The position numbers were made by a program, and so were the translations under genes. Positions 30,630 to 43,272 of a stretch of DNA of 64,000 nt are shown in pieces. Position 1 is the first letter of the stretch. The number at the start of each line of letters is the position of its first letter. Under the pieces are notes generated by a model. That model was not told the DNA's origin and made no database searches. It worked only from the letters and a program-made list of their open reading frames with translations. Source of the stretch: a phage; the sequence record OZ346212.1. One strand, written 5' to 3'.

Positions 30630-31394
30630 TTGAAATTTATCTACAAAGAACACTACCACAAAGGTGTTGTGTGGAGTCTATTTGACGGGTCTGGTGGTGC
30701 AGTCATTGACTGGGCAAAAGCTGGGTACCTGTGCCTGTGCTTTAATGCAGAAGGCGCTGATCACGGCAGTTATGCAGAGGTTATAACCGATCATCCCAAC
30801 ATTCACTATGTGGATTATTGGATTGACCCATGGTTCCCTCAGGAAACTTTTTGCATGTACCCAGCTCCAGACTTTATTCTTGCATTTCCTCCGTGCACGC
30901 ATTTAGCGGTATCAGGTGCTGCACATTTTAAGAAAAAGCTGGCTAAGGACCCTCTGATCCAAATTAATGCCGTAAAGGATGCTCGGGTTGCGGAAGAGCT
31001 GGGAGAGATTTACGATTGCCCGTGGCATGTAGAGAATCCTGTGGGTGTTATGTCCACACTGTGGCGCAAACCTGATTACCGTTTTCATCCTTCTGACTAT
31101 GGTGGGTATTTACCGGAGGATGATGTAAACCCTTGGTTTCCTGAATTTATAGCTCCACGTGATGCCTATCCAAAAATAACTTGCGGCTGGATAGGTAATG
31201 GATTTATAATCCCGCCCACAAAACCTGTCCCGCAAATAGTTGACGCGGTTAGCGGGTATTCTATGCAACACGCCAAGCTGGGTGGAAAGAGTGCAAGAAC
31301 GAAGATGATTCGAAGTCTCACACCACGTGGCTGGGCAAAAGCCGTATTCTTAGCAAACGAGCCTGTAGTAAGGAGCAGAATTAATGGGAAGTAA
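30630..31394 (+). CDS. DNA (cytosine-5)-methyltransferase-like protein (254 aa, TTG start)
   Basis: Motif I LFDGSGG, motif IV FPPCTH (PC dipeptide, Q replaced by T), motif VI VENPVG; TTG start at 30630 with SD AGGAGA because track ATG 30600 lies in the terminator hairpin. Confidence 0.5.
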   Translation: MKFIYKEHYHKGVVWSLFDGSGGAVIDWAKAGYLCLCFNAEGADHGSYAEVITDHPNIHYVDYWIDPWFPQETFCMYPAPDFILAFPPCTHLAVSGAAHFKKKLAKDPLIQINAVKDARVAEELGEIYDCPWHVENPVGVMSTLWRKPDYRFHPSDYGGYLPEDDVNPWFPEFIAPRDAYPKITCGWIGNGFIIPPTKPVPQIVDAVSGYSMQHAKLGGKSARTKMIRSLTPRGWAKAVFLANEPVVRSRINGK

Positions 31395-33462
31395 ATTTAT
31401 GGCATCTGCATACAACCGTTTCGGTGAGCCAAACCCGAAAGCAACTAAGTATAAAAGTGGGGGGAGTGTGAAACGAGACTATCGTGATGAAAAAGAAGTT
31501 GAAACTGTAGAGACTGTTTTAGAAAATACTAAAATTGTCCCTGTCCCACAACAAAATATCGGTCTGATGGCTGCACAATATTTTGGTGTGCGATCAGCAT
31601 TGTCCCAAGAAGACGGTGTGACAGTCACTGCAACATATTTCCCATATTACGACCGCTACGGAAATCTGTCTGGTTTCAAAAAGCGTGACTGGACTATTCC
31701 TAAAGAGCAAAGGGGCCATTTCTCCGTTGTTGGCATCGTAAAGGCCAACTCCCAGATGTTTGGTCAAAAGCTGTGTGCATCTTCCAACAACCGTAAGCAG
31801 ATTAATGTTTGTGAGGGAGAAGGTGATGTTATTGCAGCATGGCAGGCTGCATATCAAATACAAGTAAAAGGGATTCTCACCAACGCTAAAGCCCCGGCAA
31901 AGGTGAAACAGTGGGCTAAAGAGGTCCAGGACGGGATCGATGCAGTTATCAACGGGGGTGATTTGGCAGGAAAACCCTGCCTGCCTTTTGTTGGAATTAA
32001 CTGTGGATGTGCAAACGCAGTAGATACTTTTGCAAACAATGAGAAATTTATCCGTAGCTACGGAACAGTGGTCCTTGCAATGGACAACGATGCGGCTAAC
32101 GAGGTAGAGAAGCAAAAACACGTTATCAAAGGTGTTGAAGCCACACATAATATTGCAGCATTTTTGATGGCTGACAACGTTTACCACGTGGAATATCCTG
32201 GCGAGGTAAACGACCCTGATGGTGTAAAAGATATCCGTGACATGCTGAAGGCTAAAAAGCTGGAAGATATTGTAAACATGTTCCGGCATCCTGTTAAGTA
32301 TGTGCCTGATGCTGTGTCGGATTTAGAAGACTTCTCTATCGAATCTTTGCGGAAAAAGACTTCCAACGGGGTAGATATCAGCGCAGAGTTTCCAAAACTG
32401 CAAAAAATGCTAAAAGGCTTGCACAAAGGGACACTCGTAATGCTTACAGGTCCATCAGGAGGTGGTAAAACAACTGTAGCCAAAAAACTGGAACACTGTA
32501 TTGCAAGATACCTAATGGACCCGACATGTCCAAAGGCCGATGACTACGAAGAGGATGATCGTCTATGCATGATTCATCTTGAGGAGGACCCAGAGGAAGC
32601 AATTAACTCCTTGTATGCAAACCAGTTAGGGTTTGATGTTAAAGAGTTTGTTGAAGATCCTAGCCAGTTTTTAACTGATCAAGAACATGCAGAGATTCAC
32701 CAATCATGGGCAAAAGCTGGAAAAATCAAAGTGTTCAAACATTTCGGGTCTATTCCAGTGGACGAGTTGATTACCAAGCTTAAGCAAATGGTCTGCCTGT
32801 ACCATTGTCGCTATATTGTGCTGGATCACCTGTCTATGGTAATTTCAGGGCTTAATGTTAAAGATGAGCGAAAAGAACTGGACATGGCTATGACTCAGCT
32901 GGCTGCGTTTTGTAAGCAGTTTAACGTGTTTATCTTGGTGATCGCTCACCTCAAACGTACAGAGATTGTGCCTCCTAAGGACAAGGATGGTAACCCATTA
33001 CCTTTCTGGTATCCTGTGCGAAAAGAGAATTTGCGAGGATCGGCTGGGCTTGAACAGTTGAGTTGGGTAGTCATAGGTGTCGAGGCCGAAGAAATGGTGG
33101 ATCGTTCTCGTGGGCGTGTCCGTCTGGTAGGTCTTAAAAACCGTCCAGCAAAAACTTTAGGTATTGCTGACACTTTAGTTATGGACCCACATACAGGTAA
33201 GTTCCATGATGCCAGTAATTGGTACTGGGACAAAGAAATGCAGATGTTTACAGACGGAGAAGGTGGGGAGGTTGTTTGGAGACCTCAGGCCATGTTTGAG
33301 GACCAAGAGCATGCAGTTGTAGAAACACCTATGGGCAAGGTTGTAGCCGATAAGGTTGTAACTCCTACTATTAAGCCTGTTGACACGCAGGAAGACCTTC
33401 AGTACGATGATCCATCCTCTGATCCGGTCCCCGGTTTTGAGGATGATGAAACACCTTTTTAA
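31384..33462 (+). CDS. T7 gp4-type primase-helicase (692 aa)
   Basis: N-terminal TOPRIM-like acidic motifs (CEGEGD, AMDNDAAN); C-terminal DnaB-like helicase Walker A GPSGGGKT and Walker B IVLDHL. Confidence 0.8.
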   Translation: MGSKFMASAYNRFGEPNPKATKYKSGGSVKRDYRDEKEVETVETVLENTKIVPVPQQNIGLMAAQYFGVRSALSQEDGVTVTATYFPYYDRYGNLSGFKKRDWTIPKEQRGHFSVVGIVKANSQMFGQKLCASSNNRKQINVCEGEGDVIAAWQAAYQIQVKGILTNAKAPAKVKQWAKEVQDGIDAVINGGDLAGKPCLPFVGINCGCANAVDTFANNEKFIRSYGTVVLAMDNDAANEVEKQKHVIKGVEATHNIAAFLMADNVYHVEYPGEVNDPDGVKDIRDMLKAKKLEDIVNMFRHPVKYVPDAVSDLEDFSIESLRKKTSNGVDISAEFPKLQKMLKGLHKGTLVMLTGPSGGGKTTVAKKLEHCIARYLMDPTCPKADDYEEDDRLCMIHLEEDPEEAINSLYANQLGFDVKEFVEDPSQFLTDQEHAEIHQSWAKAGKIKVFKHFGSIPVDELITKLKQMVCLYHCRYIVLDHLSMVISGLNVKDERKELDMAMTQLAAFCKQFNVFILVIAHLKRTEIVPPKDKDGNPLPFWYPVRKENLRGSAGLEQLSWVVIGVEAEEMVDRSRGRVRLVGLKNRPAKTLGIADTLVMDPHTGKFHDASNWYWDKEMQMFTDGEGGEVVWRPQAMFEDQEHAVVETPMGKVVADKVVTPTIKPVDTQEDLQYDDPSSDPVPGFEDDETPF

Positions 33463-33520: not shown

Positions 33521-35944
33521 ATGAGCATGTGGTCGTTCGACTTTGAGTCATCCGGTTTGCTGGAAGACCCAGATCTTTATTATCACTGCGGCCTGTTTAA
33601 AGAGCTGAATAAGAACCGTTTTATGCTGTTCCTTCCTCTAAATGACCGCACACACTACTCCGAGGAGGATATAGAAAAGGCTAAGAACTTCATTCTGGCA
33701 AAGAAAACTCTTTATAAAGATTTTGAAGTTCGCATAGCAGATTTTTCAGAGTTGGAAGGTTGGCTTACAGGAAATTCTGACTGGTCACCAACAGCTTTGA
33801 ACTGCCATAACTGCTACAGTTATGACTTTATGCTGATGGAAAGATTATCTGGTATTCATTTTGATATGTTCCGTGATCCTAAGTGTATGGGGACTATCAA
33901 CGATCACCAGGTTAACCTGTTTGATACGTTGGCGATGAGCCGAATCTTGTGGCCTGATCGCCCTTTACCAAAAGGTTGTCCGGACTCTGTATTCAACCCG
34001 GTTACTAAGAAAATGCAGCCTGTTGGTCCTCACGGCCTTATGGCATGGGGCTACGCCCTTGGTAACCAGAAAGTTCAAATTGATGACTGGCGCGATCTTC
34101 CGTTATGGAAGTATGTGGATCGTGTATTTGAGGACGTTATCATCCAGGAGCTGCTCTGGAAAGAGCTGGTAGCGGAATCAAAAGGTGTATTCTACGGCAA
34201 ATCTGACATGCAGAACTTTATGTACGATCCTGCCAAAGAGAAGCCGAAAGGGTTCAAGAAGATCACCTGGAAGAACGCATTACGTCGAGGCATGTTGCAG
34301 CACTTCCTGATGGAGCTGCAGGCCCGTCAGGGTGTATACTTCGACATAGATGGGGCTATTGCTTTACGTGACCGCTGCGATGCGTGGATGAAAGAGATCG
34401 CTGATCGTGTTGAACCACAACTGCCTTTAAAAGAGCTGTCAATGTCTCAGCGGCCCAAGTTCCCTGAAAAGCCGTTTAACCAAGATGGGACAATCTCTAA
34501 TAATGGTTGGAAATGGTTAAAAGATAAGCTTGGCTATCCTGTGGACATGAGTGCTTTAGAGTTCAAAGCCCCACCTAAGCGAGCATTTACCTCTACAGGA
34601 GATGTCAGTAAGATGGGGATAAAATGGTGTGAAGAGATGGGCTGCAAAGACCACGATAAGATGGCTGATTTCTTGAGAGGTTATATTAAGGGCACCTCCA
34701 CACCACAACCTTTACCTAAAGAGCTGATGGATCAGGCAATAAGCGATCTGCAACAGAAGCGAATGCCTGACTGCAAGATACCTATGAAAATCAGCAATCA
34801 GGACGACATTAAGCGATACCTGATCAGTGCTGGTTGGCTTCCGACAATGTGGAGAACTAAGGATGTAACTAAGGACAGCAAGAAGAAAGCTCTACCTGAT
34901 GCAGATGTTGATGCACGAGTATATGCATACATGGACGAGCTTTTAGAGTCAGAGTATTGTGACCTAATTATCAACTTCTGGAACAAAACTGATGCTAAGT
35001 TTCAGACAACAGTGCACAAGTTCCGAAGCTTTCCTAACTCCGAAAGGATTAAAAAGGAAGTGTTCGGGAAAATACGCAGAAAAGCCAGGGCACTTATTAC
35101 TTCTCCGCAACTGAAAGATACGTTTGGACACCTATGTCCGAATCTTGAAAAATTGAACGGAGAGATGGCTAAAGATATCGTCTTGTGGTTATCATTGCGA
35201 AACCGCAGATCGGTCCTTGATCCAATCAAGGAGGATAAGGTTGATACTGGTCTTCTTAATCACCCACGTTTGAAGATTGACCATAAGCTTCCTGCTAAAA
35301 GCTCTGGATTAACAAACACTTCCCGACAGAAACACAGTATTTGTGCAAACATGCCTAAACCATCTCCTAAAGTGGTTATGGGTAAAGAGATGCGTAGCTT
35401 GTGGGGTGTTCCTCCTGGATACTTTGAGATCGGTATTGACGGGTCCAACTTAGAGCAGCTTATCGGGGCTTGGGGTGCCTTTGAGTTCGACAACGGCTTG
35501 TACTATGATGTTGTAAGTAACGGGGACGCACACCAAAACAATGCTGAGGCATATACAAAAGTAGCAGGCAGAGAGGTGTCTCGTAACGACGGTAAACCTA
35601 TCACGTATGGGGTTATGTACGGGGCACAAAAAGATAAAGTTGCAGATATGCTGGATATCTCCCCAGAGTTGGGGCAAAGGGTGATCGATGCACTTTGGGA
35701 TGCCAACCCAGGTCTTAAGGGGCGCAAAGAGGATCTGGAGAAATTCTGGGAAGCAACAGGTAAGAAGTTTATCTACTCTTTTGATGGTCATGCTATCTGG
35801 ACCCGATCTAAACACTCTTTACTTAATGCATACCAACAAAATGGCGGCGCATCGTTGTGTGACTTAGTTGGGATACTCATGCACCATCAAATGGTGAAGC
35901 GTGGGTGGTACGATGAAGGTGTTCGTCGTATTATCTATTACCAT
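33521..35944 (+). CDS. DNA polymerase, family A, exon 1 (exo domain through motif B)
   Basis: Exo I SFDFES; motif A ...EIGIDGSNLEQL...; motif B ...RNDGKPITYGVMYGA...; the ORF reaches a stop 2 codons after the proposed 5' splice site and lacks motif C. Confidence 0.8.
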
Positions 35945-36786
35945 AAATAACATTGTGGCTTCGTGCAGTGATGCACGTCGAAAACCTCTTTAATTGACGG
36001 GAAGGCTAAGTTGACTTTTACACCTAAACATGGTAAAAGCTCAATATGCTAATCCGCAGCGAAGACTAAAGGGGTGTAGTTAAAATGGCTAGATCAGTTG
36101 AGTATCACGGATATACCGTGTTTGATGATGGAACAATACCTTTATCGAAACGTGATCATACAACAATGTTTTGTTTTGATAATGGTCGAGGTTACCTTTG
36201 CGTAACCATGTTCATCGAGGGGAAGCAGTGCACAAAAGGTGTCCACCACTTGGTTGCTGAATGCTTTGTATCAAACCCTGATCCTGAAAGGCTCACATGG
36301 GTGAACCATAAGGACGGAAACAAATACAACAATGCATACTGGAACCTTGAATGGACCACCCCTGGTGGAAATATCAAACACGCTTATGATAATGACCTCA
36401 GAGTAAGGCCAGTCGGTGAGTATAATGCCAACGCTGTACTGACCGAGGATGAGGTAACGGAGATTTGCGAACTGTTACAAAGTGGTTTACGACAATGCGA
36501 GATTAGGGATCTTGGGTATCCTTATGAGACGGTCAGAGCCATAAAGCAAAGAAGACAGTGGAAACATATCTCTAAAAACTACACCTGGTAGTAACGTTCA
36601 GAGACTATCGAAAGCATAGCGCCAACATAAATTGGTGCGAAGAAGCGAGTAGAGTAGACCAGCAAGTGCGGTCGAAATGGGAGGTGCCTTGGTAACAAGG
36701 TAGTGAGATAGTCCGATCCATACAGGAAACTGTATGGCTGTGCACGTAATGGTGCGGGGTAGCTTAACGACCTACCTGAACTATTG
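35945..36786 (+). ncRNA. group I self-splicing intron (842 nt) interrupting the DNA polymerase gene
   Basis: Core elements P aattgacgggaagg (35992), Q aatccgcagcgaag (36051), R gttcagagactatcg (36596), S gagatagtccgatcc (36705); exon ends in U pairing with intron GUGG; intron ends in G; removal restores RIIYYH-DEYQLQV (motif C). Confidence 0.75.
36085..36591 (+). CDS. HNH homing endonuclease encoded within the intron (168 aa)
   Basis: HNH_3-like motif VHHLVAECF...VNHKDGNKYNNAYWNLEWTT; lies between Q and R elements (P6-loop position). Confidence 0.8.
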   Translation: MARSVEYHGYTVFDDGTIPLSKRDHTTMFCFDNGRGYLCVTMFIEGKQCTKGVHHLVAECFVSNPDPERLTWVNHKDGNKYNNAYWNLEWTTPGGNIKHAYDNDLRVRPVGEYNANAVLTEDEVTEICELLQSGLRQCEIRDLGYPYETVRAIKQRRQWKHISKNYTW

Positions 36787-37140
36787 GATGAGTACCAACT
36801 TCAAGTCCCTGACACACCGAAGTATAAGACTGTGTACACCTTCGACACAATCGAAGAACTGGAAGCATTTAAGGCAGAGCAGGAGGCCAAACTTCATGTG
36901 TTCGACGGTCATAAGTACAAAAAGGCACGCAAGGATGAGGACGGAAACGAAGTGGTTGACAGAGACGGAAACACGGTGTACGATCCTATCCTGAACGATG
37001 ACGGAAAGCTTGAACTTATCTGGAGCCCTGTGGGTGAAATGGTGGTGCATTGCTTCTGGCAAGCTTCTAAAATGATGGGCGTCCCGTTCCAGATCACGGG
37101 TGAATACCTGTGTGGTCGTAATTGGGGTGATTGTCACTAA
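36787..37140 (+). CDS. DNA polymerase, family A, exon 2 (motif C to C-terminus)
   Basis: Begins DEYQLQV in frame with exon 1; no plausible independent start or RBS. Confidence 0.7.
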   Translation, partial: DEYQLQVPDTPKYKTVYTFDTIEELEAFKAEQEAKLHVFDGHKYKKARKDEDGNEVVDRDGNTVYDPILNDDGKLELIWSPVGEMVVHCFWQASKMMGVPFQITGEYLCGRNWGDCH

Positions 37141-39882: not shown

Positions 39883-39965
39883 CAAATACCTATTGTAATT
39901 TACAGAAGGGGATGCTAAAATAGTGTCTCCTTCTATGTTGTTCAAATAAAATCGGAGATTCCATA

Positions 39966-40331
39966 ATGGAACAAATGAACGATCAAGCGTCGGTTGCGAT
40001 GAACGAGCAAGAACAACCTCAAGAATTTTTCTTAGGGTTAAGTAAAGATCAAGTGTCTCTTCTGCTAGTGCTTTCTTCTTTCATGGGAAGACTTCAGGAG
40101 CTCACACAACAGCCAGAGGCTGAACAATTATTCCAAGCTTTGCGTGAAGAAGAAAAATATCGTCGTTTGGACTATGCCTTAGGTTGGGTAGCTCAACAAC
40201 GAGATATGCTGATGGCCCTCTCTGGGACCACAAGTTTTGCAATGGGGCTGTTGGCTCAAGTTCAGGACAAATTAATTCAAGCAGGGTTTGCACACACGGC
40301 AAACACTAACGAAGAACAAGGAGACAAATAA
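39966..40331 (+). CDS. hypothetical protein (121 aa)
   Basis: SD GGAGA upstream; start of next gene overlaps stop. Confidence 0.6.
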   Translation: MEQMNDQASVAMNEQEQPQEFFLGLSKDQVSLLLVLSSFMGRLQELTQQPEAEQLFQALREEEKYRRLDYALGWVAQQRDMLMALSGTTSFAMGLLAQVQDKLIQAGFAHTANTNEEQGDK

Positions 40332-41557
40332 TGAGCGTTATTCAACAATTCGCTAACCCGATGAATCCGCGTGAAACTGTTTTACTGGCTCACGGCATGA
40401 TTAAACGTGTCAGCATCAAGCCTATCAAAGGTGCTGATCCTACAACAGGTATTAAAACCACTGTGTGGCAAGGTAAGAAAATTGAATCCAGCCACACCAT
40501 CTCTTTACTGATTTCTGAACTGGATTCCTCTGATAACCTGCTTCAAGGTGGTGAAGAAGTTTGGATCAGCATGGGTGATAAGCTGCTTAAACCTGGTCAT
40601 CAAGACTCTGTCTCTGTTAAAATTGATGACAAGTGGGAAACCGTAACGCCGGGATGGATCGTAAATATTCCTTTGAAGGCAAACGAGCATAACGGTAAGA
40701 CCTATTACAAAGGCTCACTGGCTAAGATGGTCAAGCTGGGTGCAGGAGAGGCTCCAGCAGCGACTCAGCAGCAAAAACAGCAACAAGGTGCACAATCACA
40801 AGGCCAGAAGCAGAAACCTCAGCAGAATGCCAATCAGGACGTTTTACGCATCTATGGTGATGTGACTCAGATTGTTGGCAACGTGGTTACTGTTAATGAC
40901 CACAAGATTGGCGAAGGTGCTATGGTTGTAACTGATGAGCAGCTTAAAGACCTGGTGGTAGGTGGTCGTGTTGCAGCCATTGTTGACAAAGACACCGGAA
41001 ACATTATCAGTGGTTTCAAGGCCTATCCTCCTAAGGCAGAGAACGGCACTCAAGGCTCTGGTGGCAAGCGTAAATCCTCTTACGACCCTATCGGTGTGGA
41101 AACGGGGCATAGCATCAATGCGTTGCAGATCATCCTGGATCGCGGGTTTAAGGTAGACGACCCACTGGGCGTGGCTAAAACACTGCACGTAGTCACCATT
41201 GAGCTTAAGAAAGAGTATGCTCAAGCCACCAACCGAGCTGAAGATGAAGTAGGTGCCAGTGTCGGTAATGCGGTGTTGAACGCTTGTCGCCGTATTGACA
41301 AGAAAACGAAAGTTGATGATTTTGCAGTGGCAATTACTGCAGAAGCAAAAGATGTCTTGACTAATCTAGCTGAGCCGTTGTACGATTGGATCAAGAACGG
41401 TGCTGAGTCCACTGACCATCAAGAACCTCAGGCTGCCAAACAGGAAGCAGCTCCACAGCAAAACACTGTAGACGCTCCTCCTGTAAATGATGCGGAAGAT
41501 GACCCAATGGATCAGAATCCAGCACAGTACGTCTTTGATGATGACATCCCATTTTAA
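40331..41557 (+). CDS. ssb: single-stranded DNA-binding protein with host-like acidic C-terminal tip (408 aa)
   Basis: C-terminus ...VFDDDIPF ends in the hexapeptide DDDIPF of E. coli SSB; Gln/Gly-rich linker precedes it; located in replication module. Confidence 0.65.
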   Translation: MSVIQQFANPMNPRETVLLAHGMIKRVSIKPIKGADPTTGIKTTVWQGKKIESSHTISLLISELDSSDNLLQGGEEVWISMGDKLLKPGHQDSVSVKIDDKWETVTPGWIVNIPLKANEHNGKTYYKGSLAKMVKLGAGEAPAATQQQKQQQGAQSQGQKQKPQQNANQDVLRIYGDVTQIVGNVVTVNDHKIGEGAMVVTDEQLKDLVVGGRVAAIVDKDTGNIISGFKAYPPKAENGTQGSGGKRKSSYDPIGVETGHSINALQIILDRGFKVDDPLGVAKTLHVVTIELKKEYAQATNRAEDEVGASVGNAVLNACRRIDKKTKVDDFAVAITAEAKDVLTNLAEPLYDWIKNGAESTDHQEPQAAKQEAAPQQNTVDAPPVNDAEDDPMDQNPAQYVFDDDIPF

Positions 41558-41572
41558 CATTTAGTTAACATA

Positions 41573-41600
41573 GCCCTGCCAGAAAGGGTGGGGTATTTTT
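41573..41600 (+). terminator. rho-independent terminator
   Basis: GCCCTGCC-agaaa-GGGTGGGG followed by TATTTTTGT. Confidence 0.65.
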
Positions 41601-41619
41601 GTATAAGGAGATCTAAAAA

Positions 41620-42398: not shown

Positions 42399-42824
42399 AT
42401 GATCTATGAAATGCCAAAACTGATTCGTGACGATGCCCAAAACGCCCACACCTTTATCATGGGCAAGCGCATGGATATTATTTGTCATAAAGATTTCTGG
42501 GAAGGTAGTTACTTCACAGAATATTTTGGTAAACTGGATAATGGTCTGCTGATCCAGTTCTACACCGATGCGGAAAACAATATCTGCTGGGAGTTCGAAA
42601 CTGAAGATATCCATAAACTTTTCACCTTCCTAGGTATTAAGGTTGAGGCCAAGTTTGAAGAAGGCGAGTGCGACGATTGTGGATTCTACGAGGTAACAGA
42701 TTTCTATCTCCCAAGTGGTGAGAACCTTTACTATGAAAGCCACTTCGGCAACTCAAATATGCCACAAGGTTGGGATGAGTTTTTTGAAATTGCGGAAGAG
42801 GAGCTGACATACCGTGATTATTGA
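42399..42824 (+). CDS. hypothetical protein (141 aa)
   Basis: SD GGAGAA upstream. Confidence 0.6.
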   Translation: MIYEMPKLIRDDAQNAHTFIMGKRMDIICHKDFWEGSYFTEYFGKLDNGLLIQFYTDAENNICWEFETEDIHKLFTFLGIKVEAKFEEGECDDCGFYEVTDFYLPSGENLYYESHFGNSNMPQGWDEFFEIAEEELTYRDY

Positions 42825-43272
42825 TACTGTAGCGGGAGATTTAATCTCCCTTTTTAAGAGCGGTGCTGGTCACCTGATCCACGGTTGTAACTGCTTTCAT
42901 ACAATGGGTGCAGGCATAGCGAAAGATATTGCCCGTGAGTTCCCTCAAGCACTGGCAGCCGACAAAGAGACTGCCTATGGTAATCTGGACAAGCTGGGTA
43001 TGTTTTCTTGTTGGGAGCATTTTGCCAAGAACAGGGTCGTATATGGAATCAACCTGTATACCCAGTTCTACCCAGGGCCCAATGCTGAATACTTCTCAAT
43101 AATGAAAGGTTTTGAGCGAGTCAACGAGGTATTCAAAGGTGTGTCATTGCCGTTCTACATTCCTAAAATTGGATGCGGTATTGGCGGTCTAAAGTGGGAA
43201 CATGTAGAAGATGTAATTAATCTTGCAACCACAGATATTGATGTGGTTGTAGTAGAGTACAAAAAGTGTTGA
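42814..43272 (+). CDS. macro-domain (ADP-ribose-binding/processing) protein (152 aa, GTG start)
   Basis: Macro-domain pattern: ...GDLISLF...AGHLIHGCNCFHTMGAGIAKDI (matches VNAAN...GGGV..AI region) and ...LPFYIPKIGCGIGGL (matches the FP.I.TG..G region). Confidence 0.65.
   Translation: MIIDTVAGDLISLFKSGAGHLIHGCNCFHTMGAGIAKDIAREFPQALAADKETAYGNLDKLGMFSCWEHFAKNRVVYGINLYTQFYPGPNAEYFSIMKGFERVNEVFKGVSLPFYIPKIGCGIGGLKWEHVEDVINLATTDIDVVVVEYKKC

What the first reader, a model, noticed from the sequence alone, without database searches (positions are those of the whole stretch)
40331..41557. Large phage SSB ending in the exact host SSB C-terminal hexapeptide DDDIPF
The 408-aa protein ends ...VFDDDIPF, identical to the E. 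coli SSB tip that recruits many host replication and repair proteins, preceded by a Gln/Gly-rich flexible linker. The body is more than twice the size of bacterial SSB and is not obviously OB-fold from sequence. This looks like mimicry of the host SSB interaction hub and points to an enterobacterial host.
Basis: partly seen in the sequence, partly recalled or inferred. Interest (0 to 1): 0.5.

Follow-up and report, generated by a model that had tools for sequence, protein, structure and literature searches.

The report
Phage SSB-like protein with host tip

Summary
ORF 40331..41557 (+) encodes 408 aa ending VFDDDIPF.

The window is a Vequintavirus, 99.9% identical to phage Murica. Pfam, NCBIfam and PDB sequence searches do not recognise the globular parts; PHROG 4477 is "unknown function".

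An AlphaFold model shows:
- a Q/G-rich linker
- a small OB-like barrel
- a four-helix bundle with no specific structural neighbour
- a disordered acidic tail

The family has 246 cluster representatives and is essentially phage-only. Among complete members nearly all keep an acidic tail with [ILV]P[FW]. The genome has a T7-type replisome and no other SSB.

The 98.5%-identical orthologue Bas52_0087 was reported in a 2026 preprint as an SSB-like trigger of the DRT10 defence, so the finding is already known. ssDNA binding remains untested.

New here:
- The primase-helicase also ends in an acidic ...TPF tail.
- About a quarter of Vequintavirus records, including rV5, append a conserved 15-residue extension (APVGLQY...) after the tip, often next to a homing endonuclease.

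Host mimicry is plausible but unproven, and the motif does not identify an enterobacterial host.

The parts
39966..40331 (+). Upstream 121-aa ORF (PHROG 7310, function unknown). Its TAA stop shares its last base with the ATG of the SSB-like gene (TAATG), so the two are probably co-translated.
   Evidence: It lies directly upstream of all long-form family members in related loci. JLBYU08 annotates it as 'putative ssDNA-binding protein' without visible basis.
40331..41557 (+). SSB-like protein gene, 408 aa. It belongs to PHROG 4477 and is the orthologue of Bas52_0087 (QXV84166.1).
40331..40747 (+). Residues 1-139: a basic (pI 9.1) N-terminal OB-fold domain, the predicted ssDNA-binding core. Conserved aromatic and basic residues are W78, W102, Y126, K97 and K123.
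40748..40840 (+). Residues 140-170: a disordered Gln/Gly/Lys-rich linker.
   Evidence: pLDDT is 25-36.
40841..41026 (+). Residues 171-232: a small five-strand barrel with a short helix between strands 3 and 4, which is OB-like topology. It is absent from the short (250-310 aa) family members.
   Evidence: Secondary structure is from DSSP. Mean column occupancy over these positions is 35%, and the length distribution is. The preprint calls it a second OB fold. It was not fold-searched on its own.
41087..41395 (+). Residues 253-355: a four-helix bundle and the most conserved part of the family (G255, G259, H260, N263, G308, G312). It holds or abuts the DRT10-escape positions D252 (41084-41086) and Y351 (41381-41383). 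It is a putative oligomerisation or partner-docking domain.
41396..41554 (+). Residues 356-408: a disordered acidic tail (pI 4.05). The tip VFDDDIPF is at 41531-41554 and is identical in its last 7 residues to the E. coli SSB-Ct ...DFDDDIPF.
41573..41604 (+). Intrinsic-terminator-like hairpin plus T-run, 16 nt after the stop codon.
39893..39921 (+). Sigma-70-like promoter match (TTGTAA-17-TAAAAT with TG) ahead of the two-gene unit. This is a consensus match only.
31384..33462 (+). T7 gp4-type primase-helicase, 692 aa, whose C-terminus (33436-33459) is FEDDETPF. This is a second acidic ...PF tail in the same replisome.
33521..37140 (+). Family A DNA polymerase gene and candidate reader of the tails. 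It is split by a group I intron (35935-36736) that carries an HNH ORF (36085-36591).

Best explanation
The gene encodes the phage's own replicative ssDNA-binding protein. It belongs to a phage-restricted family (PHROG 4477) that sequence libraries do not link to any SSB family. Proposed mechanism: the basic N-terminal OB fold, helped in the long forms by a second small OB-like barrel, coats ssDNA exposed by the phage's T7-type primase-helicase. The conserved four-helix bundle mediates self-association or cooperativity. The disordered acidic tail ending in a free ...DDDIPF-COOH is a docking peptide. Because its last seven residues equal the host SSB-Ct, it can plug into the SSB-Ct pockets of host proteins such as exonuclease I. 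By analogy with T7 gp2.5 and gp4, it probably also contacts the phage DNA polymerase, and it may fold back on the OB cleft when no DNA is bound. What is shown here: the sequence, the conservation, the predicted folds, the genomic context and the orthology to the DRT10 trigger. What is inferred: ssDNA binding, oligomerisation and every tail partner.

For: Tail: 127 of 142 diverse members end in P[FW], and the other 15 carry the same P[FW] followed by an extension. The consensus is D-F-D-D-D-I-P-F. Some members end NEPPMDFDDDIPF, exactly as E. coli SSB does.

Context: the gene lies about 4.4 kb downstream of the end of the family A DNA polymerase exon 1 (35950) and about 3.2 kb downstream of its second exon (37140), and downstream of the primase-helicase. 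The same gene order holds in distant relatives. No other SSB is annotated in a complete sister genome, and E. coli SSB matches the genome only at this tail.

Distribution: among one genome for each of 185,579 bacterial and archaeal species, a pattern scan (close-ish relatives) found one hit, in a MAG contig.

Independent work: Bas52_0087, which is 98.5% identical and also 408 aa, was predicted to be SSB-like by Phold and AF2. DRT10 escape mutants were two missense changes (D252V, Y351C) and no nulls, which fits an essential gene. SbcB (ExoI) dosage modulates the defence.
Confidence: 0.7

Rival explanations
1. The protein is mainly a hub decoy, or hijacker. Its job is not to coat phage ssDNA but to present many copies of the host SSB-Ct. 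In this way it would sequester or redirect host SSB-interacting proteins (ExoI, RecQ, PriA, chi, UDG) away from host SSB, protecting phage DNA ends or shutting down host repair.
For: Seven of the last eight tip residues are identical to E. coli SSB. DRT10 activity responds both to this protein and to ExoI dosage, and the preprint's authors raise competition with SbcB as a possibility.
Against: Arabinose-induced expression of the orthologue did not affect E. coli viability, whereas titrating the SSB hub should be harmful. The conserved OB fold and the replication-module synteny are not needed for a decoy. No other SSB is available for a phage that brings its own replisome. Many natural alleles mask the tip.
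Confidence: 0.12
2. The tail is primarily an intra-phage replisome connector, and its identity to the host tip is incidental (convergence on the same acidic-hydrophobic solution). As in T7, where the gp2.5 tail contacts the replication proteins, the SSB-like tail and the primase-helicase tail would both dock on the phage family A polymerase. Host proteins would not be functional partners.
For: In six frames of the 64-kb window, the acidic-x-PF pattern occurs only twice, at the C-termini of the primase-helicase (FEDDETPF) and of this protein. The pairing persists in other Vequintavirinae: EDEDCPF with FEDVPF. In Seunavirus GAP31 and in Klebsiella phage K54_rec1 (unclassified in its record) the helicase tail carries the same APIGLQY extension seen on SSB-like proteins. 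The helicase is related to T7-group gp4 proteins. The T7 gp2.5 tail binds replication partners; that the gp4 tail does the same is my own knowledge.
Against: phi92-like phages keep ...PPMDFDDDIPF on the SSB-like protein, but their helicase ends ...GSY with no acidic PF, so the pairing is not general. Some tails copy 13 residues of the enterobacterial SSB tail, which is more than convergence on a short motif requires. This rival is compatible with the best explanation and differs only in excluding host partners.
Confidence: 0.13
3. The protein is a recombination mediator, an annealing protein or a helicase loader built on an OB fold plus a helical domain (RecO-like architecture), rather than a general SSB.
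Against: The RecO matches cover only about 90 residues, consistent with the OB fold alone (inferred; the tool gives no aligned ranges). The helical domain searched on its own does not list RecO. RecO binds the SSB-Ct rather than carrying it (abstract of PMC7913777). No other SSB is left for the phage replisome.
Confidence: 0.05

Closest known systems
Bas52_0087 (QXV84166.1) of Escherichia phage RudolfGeigy, described in bioRxiv 10.64898/2026.04.29.721553
   Same: Orthologue: 98.5% amino-acid identity, 408 aa, the same position between the same neighbours, the same FDDDIPF tip, and D252 and Y351 both present. The preprint describes it as SSB-like, with two OB folds and a C-tip like E. coli SSB.
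   Different: Nothing material differs. The preprint gives genetics (a DRT10 trigger) and a structure prediction. It gives no DNA-binding data, family survey, helicase-tail comparison or extension variant.
Bacterial SSB (E. coli SSB, Pfam PF00436)
   Same: It has a predicted OB-fold ssDNA-binding core, a disordered low-complexity region, and an acidic tip of which seven of the last eight residues are identical.
   Different: The body shows no detectable sequence homology. It is 2.3 times longer. It has an extra small barrel and a conserved four-helix bundle between the OB fold and the tail. The Q/G-rich linker sits between the beta domains. The family is essentially absent from cellular genomes. 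Its oligomeric state is unknown.
Phage T7 gp2.5 (with the gp4 primase-helicase and gp5 polymerase)
   Same: It is an OB-fold SSB with an acidic C-terminal tail ending in Phe, working beside a gp4-type primase-helicase and a family A polymerase. The helicase also carries an acidic tail ending in Phe (for T7 gp4 this is own knowledge).
   Different: There is no match to DUF2815/gp2.5 profiles, only weak fold-level BFVD similarity (E 3e-3). The tip is of the bacterial ...IPF type, not ...DGDF. The helical domain has no counterpart in gp2.5.
Thermus/Deinococcus SSB (two OB folds per chain, dimeric)
   Different: The second barrel here is only 62 residues, is missing in most family members, and was not fold-searched separately. 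The domains are joined by a 30-residue disordered linker.

Membership tests
PHROG 4477 (phage protein family, function unknown) | Full-length match to the family profile | tested here: met
   E 1.7e-172 over residues 1-408 against profile positions 1-393 of 393. All 142 diverse relatives also match.
Bas52_0087-type SSB-like DRT10 trigger (preprint 10.64898/2026.04.29.721553) | Orthology: same length, same locus and near-identical sequence, including D252, Y351 and FDDDIPF | tested here: met
   98.5% identity to MZ501102.1 75981-77204. That CDS is bas52_0087/QXV84166.1. The residues were checked.
Bas52_0087-type SSB-like DRT10 trigger (preprint 10.64898/2026.04.29.721553) | Triggers DRT10 (UG17) defence during infection | not testable with these tools
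   Shown genetically for Bas52 only.
Bacterial SSB family (Pfam PF00436 / NCBIfam PRK09010) | Sequence-profile match of the DNA-binding core | tested here: not met
   There is no Pfam hit for the query at E <= 1 or for 142 relatives at E <= 0.01. NCBIfam PRK09010 matches only the last 24-46 residues of three relatives, far below its cutoff. PDB profile hits cover the tail only.
Bacterial SSB family (Pfam PF00436 / NCBIfam PRK09010) | OB-fold core | tested here: met
Bacterial SSB family (Pfam PF00436 / NCBIfam PRK09010) | Disordered linker followed by an acidic tip ending [ILV]PF-COOH | tested here: met
   In this window the Phe is the last residue.
Bacterial SSB family (Pfam PF00436 / NCBIfam PRK09010) | High-affinity, sequence-independent ssDNA binding as a homo-oligomer | not testable with these tools
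   No tool here measures binding, and no published assay was found.
T7 gp2.5-like phage SSB (DUF2815) | Sequence-profile match | tested here: not met
   Searches give no hit. There is only a weak fold-level BFVD match to a DUF2815 protein (E 3.1e-3).
T7 gp2.5-like phage SSB (DUF2815) | Acidic C-terminal tail ending in Phe, partnered with a gp4-type primase-helicase and a family A polymerase | tested here: met
   This concerns context and sequence only, not interaction.

The most novel reading that the evidence does not exclude
The acidic ...[IT]PF tip is a portable docking module carried by two different replisome proteins of Vequintavirinae, the SSB-like protein and the primase-helicase, and read by a common partner. 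The DNA that encodes it is a homing site for endonucleases with a shared CxxC N-terminal domain. Their insertion is associated with a conserved, translated 15-17-residue cap (APIGLQYG..IH..) that removes the free C-terminal Phe. Natural populations would then be polymorphic for an exposed or a masked SSB-Ct, with consequences for host-factor recruitment and for defence sensing such as DRT10.
Probability: 0.3. Interest if true: 0.6.

Novelty: already known. Interest (0 to 1): 0.38.

Why it matters
Phage SSBs are recurrent triggers of bacterial immunity: abstracts retrieved here report this for Retron-Eco8 and DARNA, and the DRT10 preprint cites DRT9. This protein's orthologue is the DRT10 trigger. 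Recognising PHROG 4477 as an SSB-type family would let hundreds of "hypothetical proteins" in rV5-, PVP-SE1-, CR3- and phi92-like phages be annotated, several of which are used in therapy and biocontrol. It also gives a compact system for asking whether a phage uses the host SSB-Ct code for its own replisome, for hijacking host factors, or for both. The natural exposed-tip and masked-tip alleles are a ready-made experiment on that question.

Tried and rejected
- **Sequence searches of the whole protein.** Pfam, NCBIfam and PDB gave nothing for the globular parts. PIN_9 and DCX hits at E about 0.1 are noise.
- **A RecO-like reading.** Rejected, because only about 90 residues align and the helical domain on its own does not list RecO.
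- **The C-terminal extension as a read-through artefact of homing-endonuclease insertion, or as intron sequence.** Rejected. Codon differences among five loci fall mostly at third positions while the peptide is kept. The extension occurs without an endonuclease gene in L016, L019 and L022. Rfam finds no intron in L006.
- **A canonical SSB elsewhere in the genome.** None is annotated in the complete sister genome JLBYU08. tblastn with E. coli SSB, using a sequence recalled from memory, hits only this tail.
- **Technical limits.** The search for related loci failed with the 142-sequence alignment because it had no conserved stretch; the 27-sequence alignment worked.
- **Literature.** The DARNA preprint concerns T3, T4, T5 and T7 SSBs only and says nothing about this family.
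- **Host-tip covariation.** This could not be tested. All family members with a named host in the phage collection infect Enterobacterales, apart from one BFVD structural match from an Aeromonas phage.

Full report
**1. Observation**

ORF 40331..41557 on the + strand starts with ATG, encodes 408 aa and ends ...DDPMDQNPAQYVFDDDIPF followed by TAA. No competing long ORF exists on the other strand. With the window's own amino-acid composition, an ORF ending in DDDIPF is expected 2.7e-6 times per window.

The tip equals the E. coli SSB-Ct...PPMDFDDDIPF is visible in PDB chain 7f2n aligned to the family profile, and DDDIPF is quoted as the SSB-Ct in PMC5872125.

The stretch directly before the tip is disordered and rich in Q, P, A, E and D.

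**2. What the window is**

The gene is 99.9% identical in DNA to Escherichia phage Murica and more than 90% identical to 116 phage records, nearly all Vequintavirus (rV5-like myoviruses of E. coli).

The neighbourhood is a replication module:
- a Dda-like helicase
- DNA methyltransferases
- a gp4-type primase-helicase (31384..33462)
- a family A DNA polymerase (33521..)

The gene forms a two-gene unit with an upstream 121-aa ORF whose stop overlaps its start (TAATG). A terminator-like hairpin follows at 41573-41594.

**3. What the protein looks like**

Sequence libraries are silent about the globular parts:
- Pfam gives no hit at E <= 1.
- PDB sequence search gives nothing.
- NCBIfam gives nothing.
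- PHROG 4477 matches at E 1.7e-172 but is "unknown function".

An AlphaFold2 model built on a 27-sequence alignment has mean pLDDT 75 and three confident domains:
- a beta domain at residues 1-139
- a five-strand barrel with a short helix after strand 3 at 171-232
- four helices at 253-355

The disordered segments are 140-169, 238-249 and 365-408.

This domain is basic (pI 9.1). It carries family-conserved W78, W102, Y126, K97 and K123, as expected for base stacking and phosphate contacts (inference).

**4. The family**

A profile search of 1.84 billion representatives finds 246 clusters at E <= 1e-3. Lengths are bimodal:
- 250-310 aa: the OB fold, the helical bundle and the tail
- 350-430 aa: the same plus the middle barrel

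Of 142 complete, diverse members, 127 end in P[FW] and the other 15 have the same motif followed by an extension. The consensus of the last eight residues is D-F-D-D-D-I-P-F, with I, L or V at position -3. Several members end NEPPMDFDDDIPF, exactly like enterobacterial SSB.

In the phage collection the family occurs in Vequintavirinae and in PVP-SE1-, CR3/phiTE-, 4MG-, phi92- and Phapecoctavirus-like phages. It is nearly always annotated "hypothetical", occasionally "SSB".

In one genome per species for 185,579 bacterial and archaeal species, a pattern-based scan (which finds close-ish relatives) found a single hit, in a MAG contig. This is therefore a lytic-phage family, not a cellular SSB lineage.

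Gene order next to the primase-helicase and polymerase is kept in distant members.

**5. No other SSB in the genome**

The completely annotated sister genome JLBYU08 lists no other SSB. tblastn with E. coli SSB, using a sequence recalled from memory, hits the genome only at this tail. A phage that brings its own helicase-primase, polymerase, ligase and RNase H needs an ssDNA-coating protein (established knowledge). This is the only candidate.

**6. Prior description**

A bioRxiv preprint of 30 April 2026 (10.64898/2026.04.29.721553) reports the following:
- Bas52 escapes the DRT10 (UG17) reverse-transcriptase defence through D252V or Y351C in Bas52_0087.
[quoted passage not shown] - SbcB (ExoI) dosage modulates the defence.

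bas52_0087 (QXV84166.1) is the CDS at MZ501102.1 75981-77207. It is 98.5% identical to the window protein over all 408 residues. D252 and Y351 are present here at 41084-41086 and 41381-41383.

No DNA-binding or partner-binding assay was found.

Two further points follow from that paper. Only missense escapers were recovered, which fits an essential gene (inference). Over-expression in E. coli was not toxic, which argues against a potent hub-sequestering decoy.

**7. How it most likely works**

- The OB core binds ssDNA (inferred from the fold, the charge and the context).
- The helical bundle mediates self-association or cooperativity. This is inferred from its conservation and from escape substitutions lying at its N-terminal edge (D252) and in helix 4 (Y351). 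The preprint also calls this region a putative oligomerisation interface.
- The tail is a docking peptide. SSB-Ct pockets in DnaG, ExoI, RecO, chi and PriA combine a hydrophobic pocket for the Phe, a basic residue that pairs with the terminal carboxylate, and a basic rim for the Asp residues (PMC5872125). A free ...DDDIPF on a phage protein should fit these pockets (inference).

**8. A second tail in the same replisome (new here)**

In all six frames of the window, the pattern three-acidic-x-P-F occurs only twice: at the C-terminus of this protein and at that of the primase-helicase (...PVPGFEDDETPF).

Related Vequintavirus-like contigs pair helicase ...EFPEDEDCPF with SSB-like ...EWDFEDVPF. 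The helicase domain is 35-39% identical to the gp4 proteins of T7-group phages.

In T7 the acidic, Phe-terminated tail of gp2.5 contacts the replication proteins. That the gp4 tail does likewise, and that the two are interchangeable, is my own knowledge. The phage polymerase is therefore a strong candidate reader of both tails.

The pairing is not universal. phi92-like phages keep ...PPMDFDDDIPF on the SSB-like protein, but their helicase ends ...GSY.

**9. A masked-tip variant (new here, unexplained)**

In Bas50 (DrSchubert) the gene is 423 aa...DFCDDIPF is followed by APVGLQYGKSRIHAL, and a homing-endonuclease gene starts inside the extension.

A 161-nt probe across this junction is covered at 80% or more in 27 phage records, including the type phage rV5. 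The 90% cluster with this ending has 533 member sequences.

The same motif ([AS]P[IV]GLQY...[HY]x[LI]) follows the tip in distant family members. It also follows the primase-helicase tails of Seunavirus GAP31 (...DFDNDTPF-APIGLQYANHAIYAL) and of Klebsiella phage K54_rec1 (...DDDTPF-APIGLQYAKHAIYVI). Each of those is followed by an endonuclease gene.

Differences among five loci fall mostly at third codon positions while the peptide is preserved, so the extension is translated and under selection. It occurs with and without an endonuclease gene. Endonuclease genes also sit directly after normal ...IPF stops.

The endonucleases after the SSB-like gene and the one after the GAP31 helicase share an N-terminal CxxC...CxxC domain, 65-68% identical over 40 residues. 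No group I intron is detected at this site.

A non-terminal Phe should not fit canonical SSB-Ct pockets (inference). Either the free tip is dispensable in those phages, or the extension is removed, or it provides another contact. This weakens any claim that host-hub mimicry is essential.

**10. Comparison and novelty**

- In function, the protein most resembles a bacterial SSB (an OB core plus an acidic IPF tip) operating in a T7-like replisome.
- In membership, it is neither PF00436 nor DUF2815 by sequence. Both were tested and not met.
- It is a member of PHROG 4477 and the orthologue of Bas52_0087.

As a finding it is already known. What this analysis adds is the family-wide survey, the absence of any other SSB in the genome, the shared helicase tail, and the extension and homing-endonuclease polymorphism.

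**11. Verdict**

The best explanation, a replicative SSB of a distinct phage family with an SSB-Ct-type docking tail, carries a confidence of about 0.7. Interest is moderate to low for the finding as stated (0.38). The tail-module and masked-tip reading is the more novel lead.

Noticed in passing
window 33436-33459 (C-terminus of the primase-helicase, 31384..33462): The gp4-type primase-helicase ends FEDDETPF. Together with the SSB-like tip, this is the only three-acidic-x-PF pattern in six frames of the 64-kb window. Other Vequintavirinae keep an acidic ...PF helicase tail, whereas phi92-like phages do not.
   Followed up: partly
L006 2725-2772 (Bas50), L012, L016, L019, L022; helicase genes in L029/L031 and L030/L032: A conserved, translated 15-17-residue extension (APIGLQYG..IH..) follows the ...PF tip. 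It occurs in about a quarter of Vequintavirus SSB-like genes (including rV5), in distant family members and on primase-helicase tails. It is often next to homing endonucleases that share a CxxC N-terminal domain. Its function is unknown, and it removes the free C-terminal Phe.
   Followed up: partly
window 35935-36736 (HNH ORF at 36085-36591): The family A DNA polymerase gene is split (33521..35950 plus 36784..37140) by a probable group I intron carrying an HNH endonuclease ORF. The Rfam RF00028 match spans the full model at 39.1 bits, E 4.6e-8, below the gathering score of 50. A 97%-similar relative (L008) has an uninterrupted 925-aa polymerase.
   Followed up: partly
window 39966-40331: A 121-aa acidic ORF (PHROG 7310, unknown function) is translationally coupled to the SSB-like gene (TAATG). 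It is conserved directly upstream of all long-form family members. One GenBank record labels it 'putative ssDNA-binding protein' with no detectable support.
   Followed up: partly
GenBank records MG065635, MG065647, MG065654, MG065655, MG065666, MG065672 and others (hits): Sixteen to 21 records named 'Campylobacter phage', with host given as C. jejuni, are 98-99.9% identical to E. coli rV5-like phages across this gene. The host label looks doubtful.
   Followed up: no
window 42814-43272: A macro-domain protein (Pfam PF01661, E 1e-5 with no matched stretch passing on its own) is encoded about 1.3 kb downstream of the SSB-like gene. It may be an ADP-ribose-removing counter-defence function.
   Followed up: no
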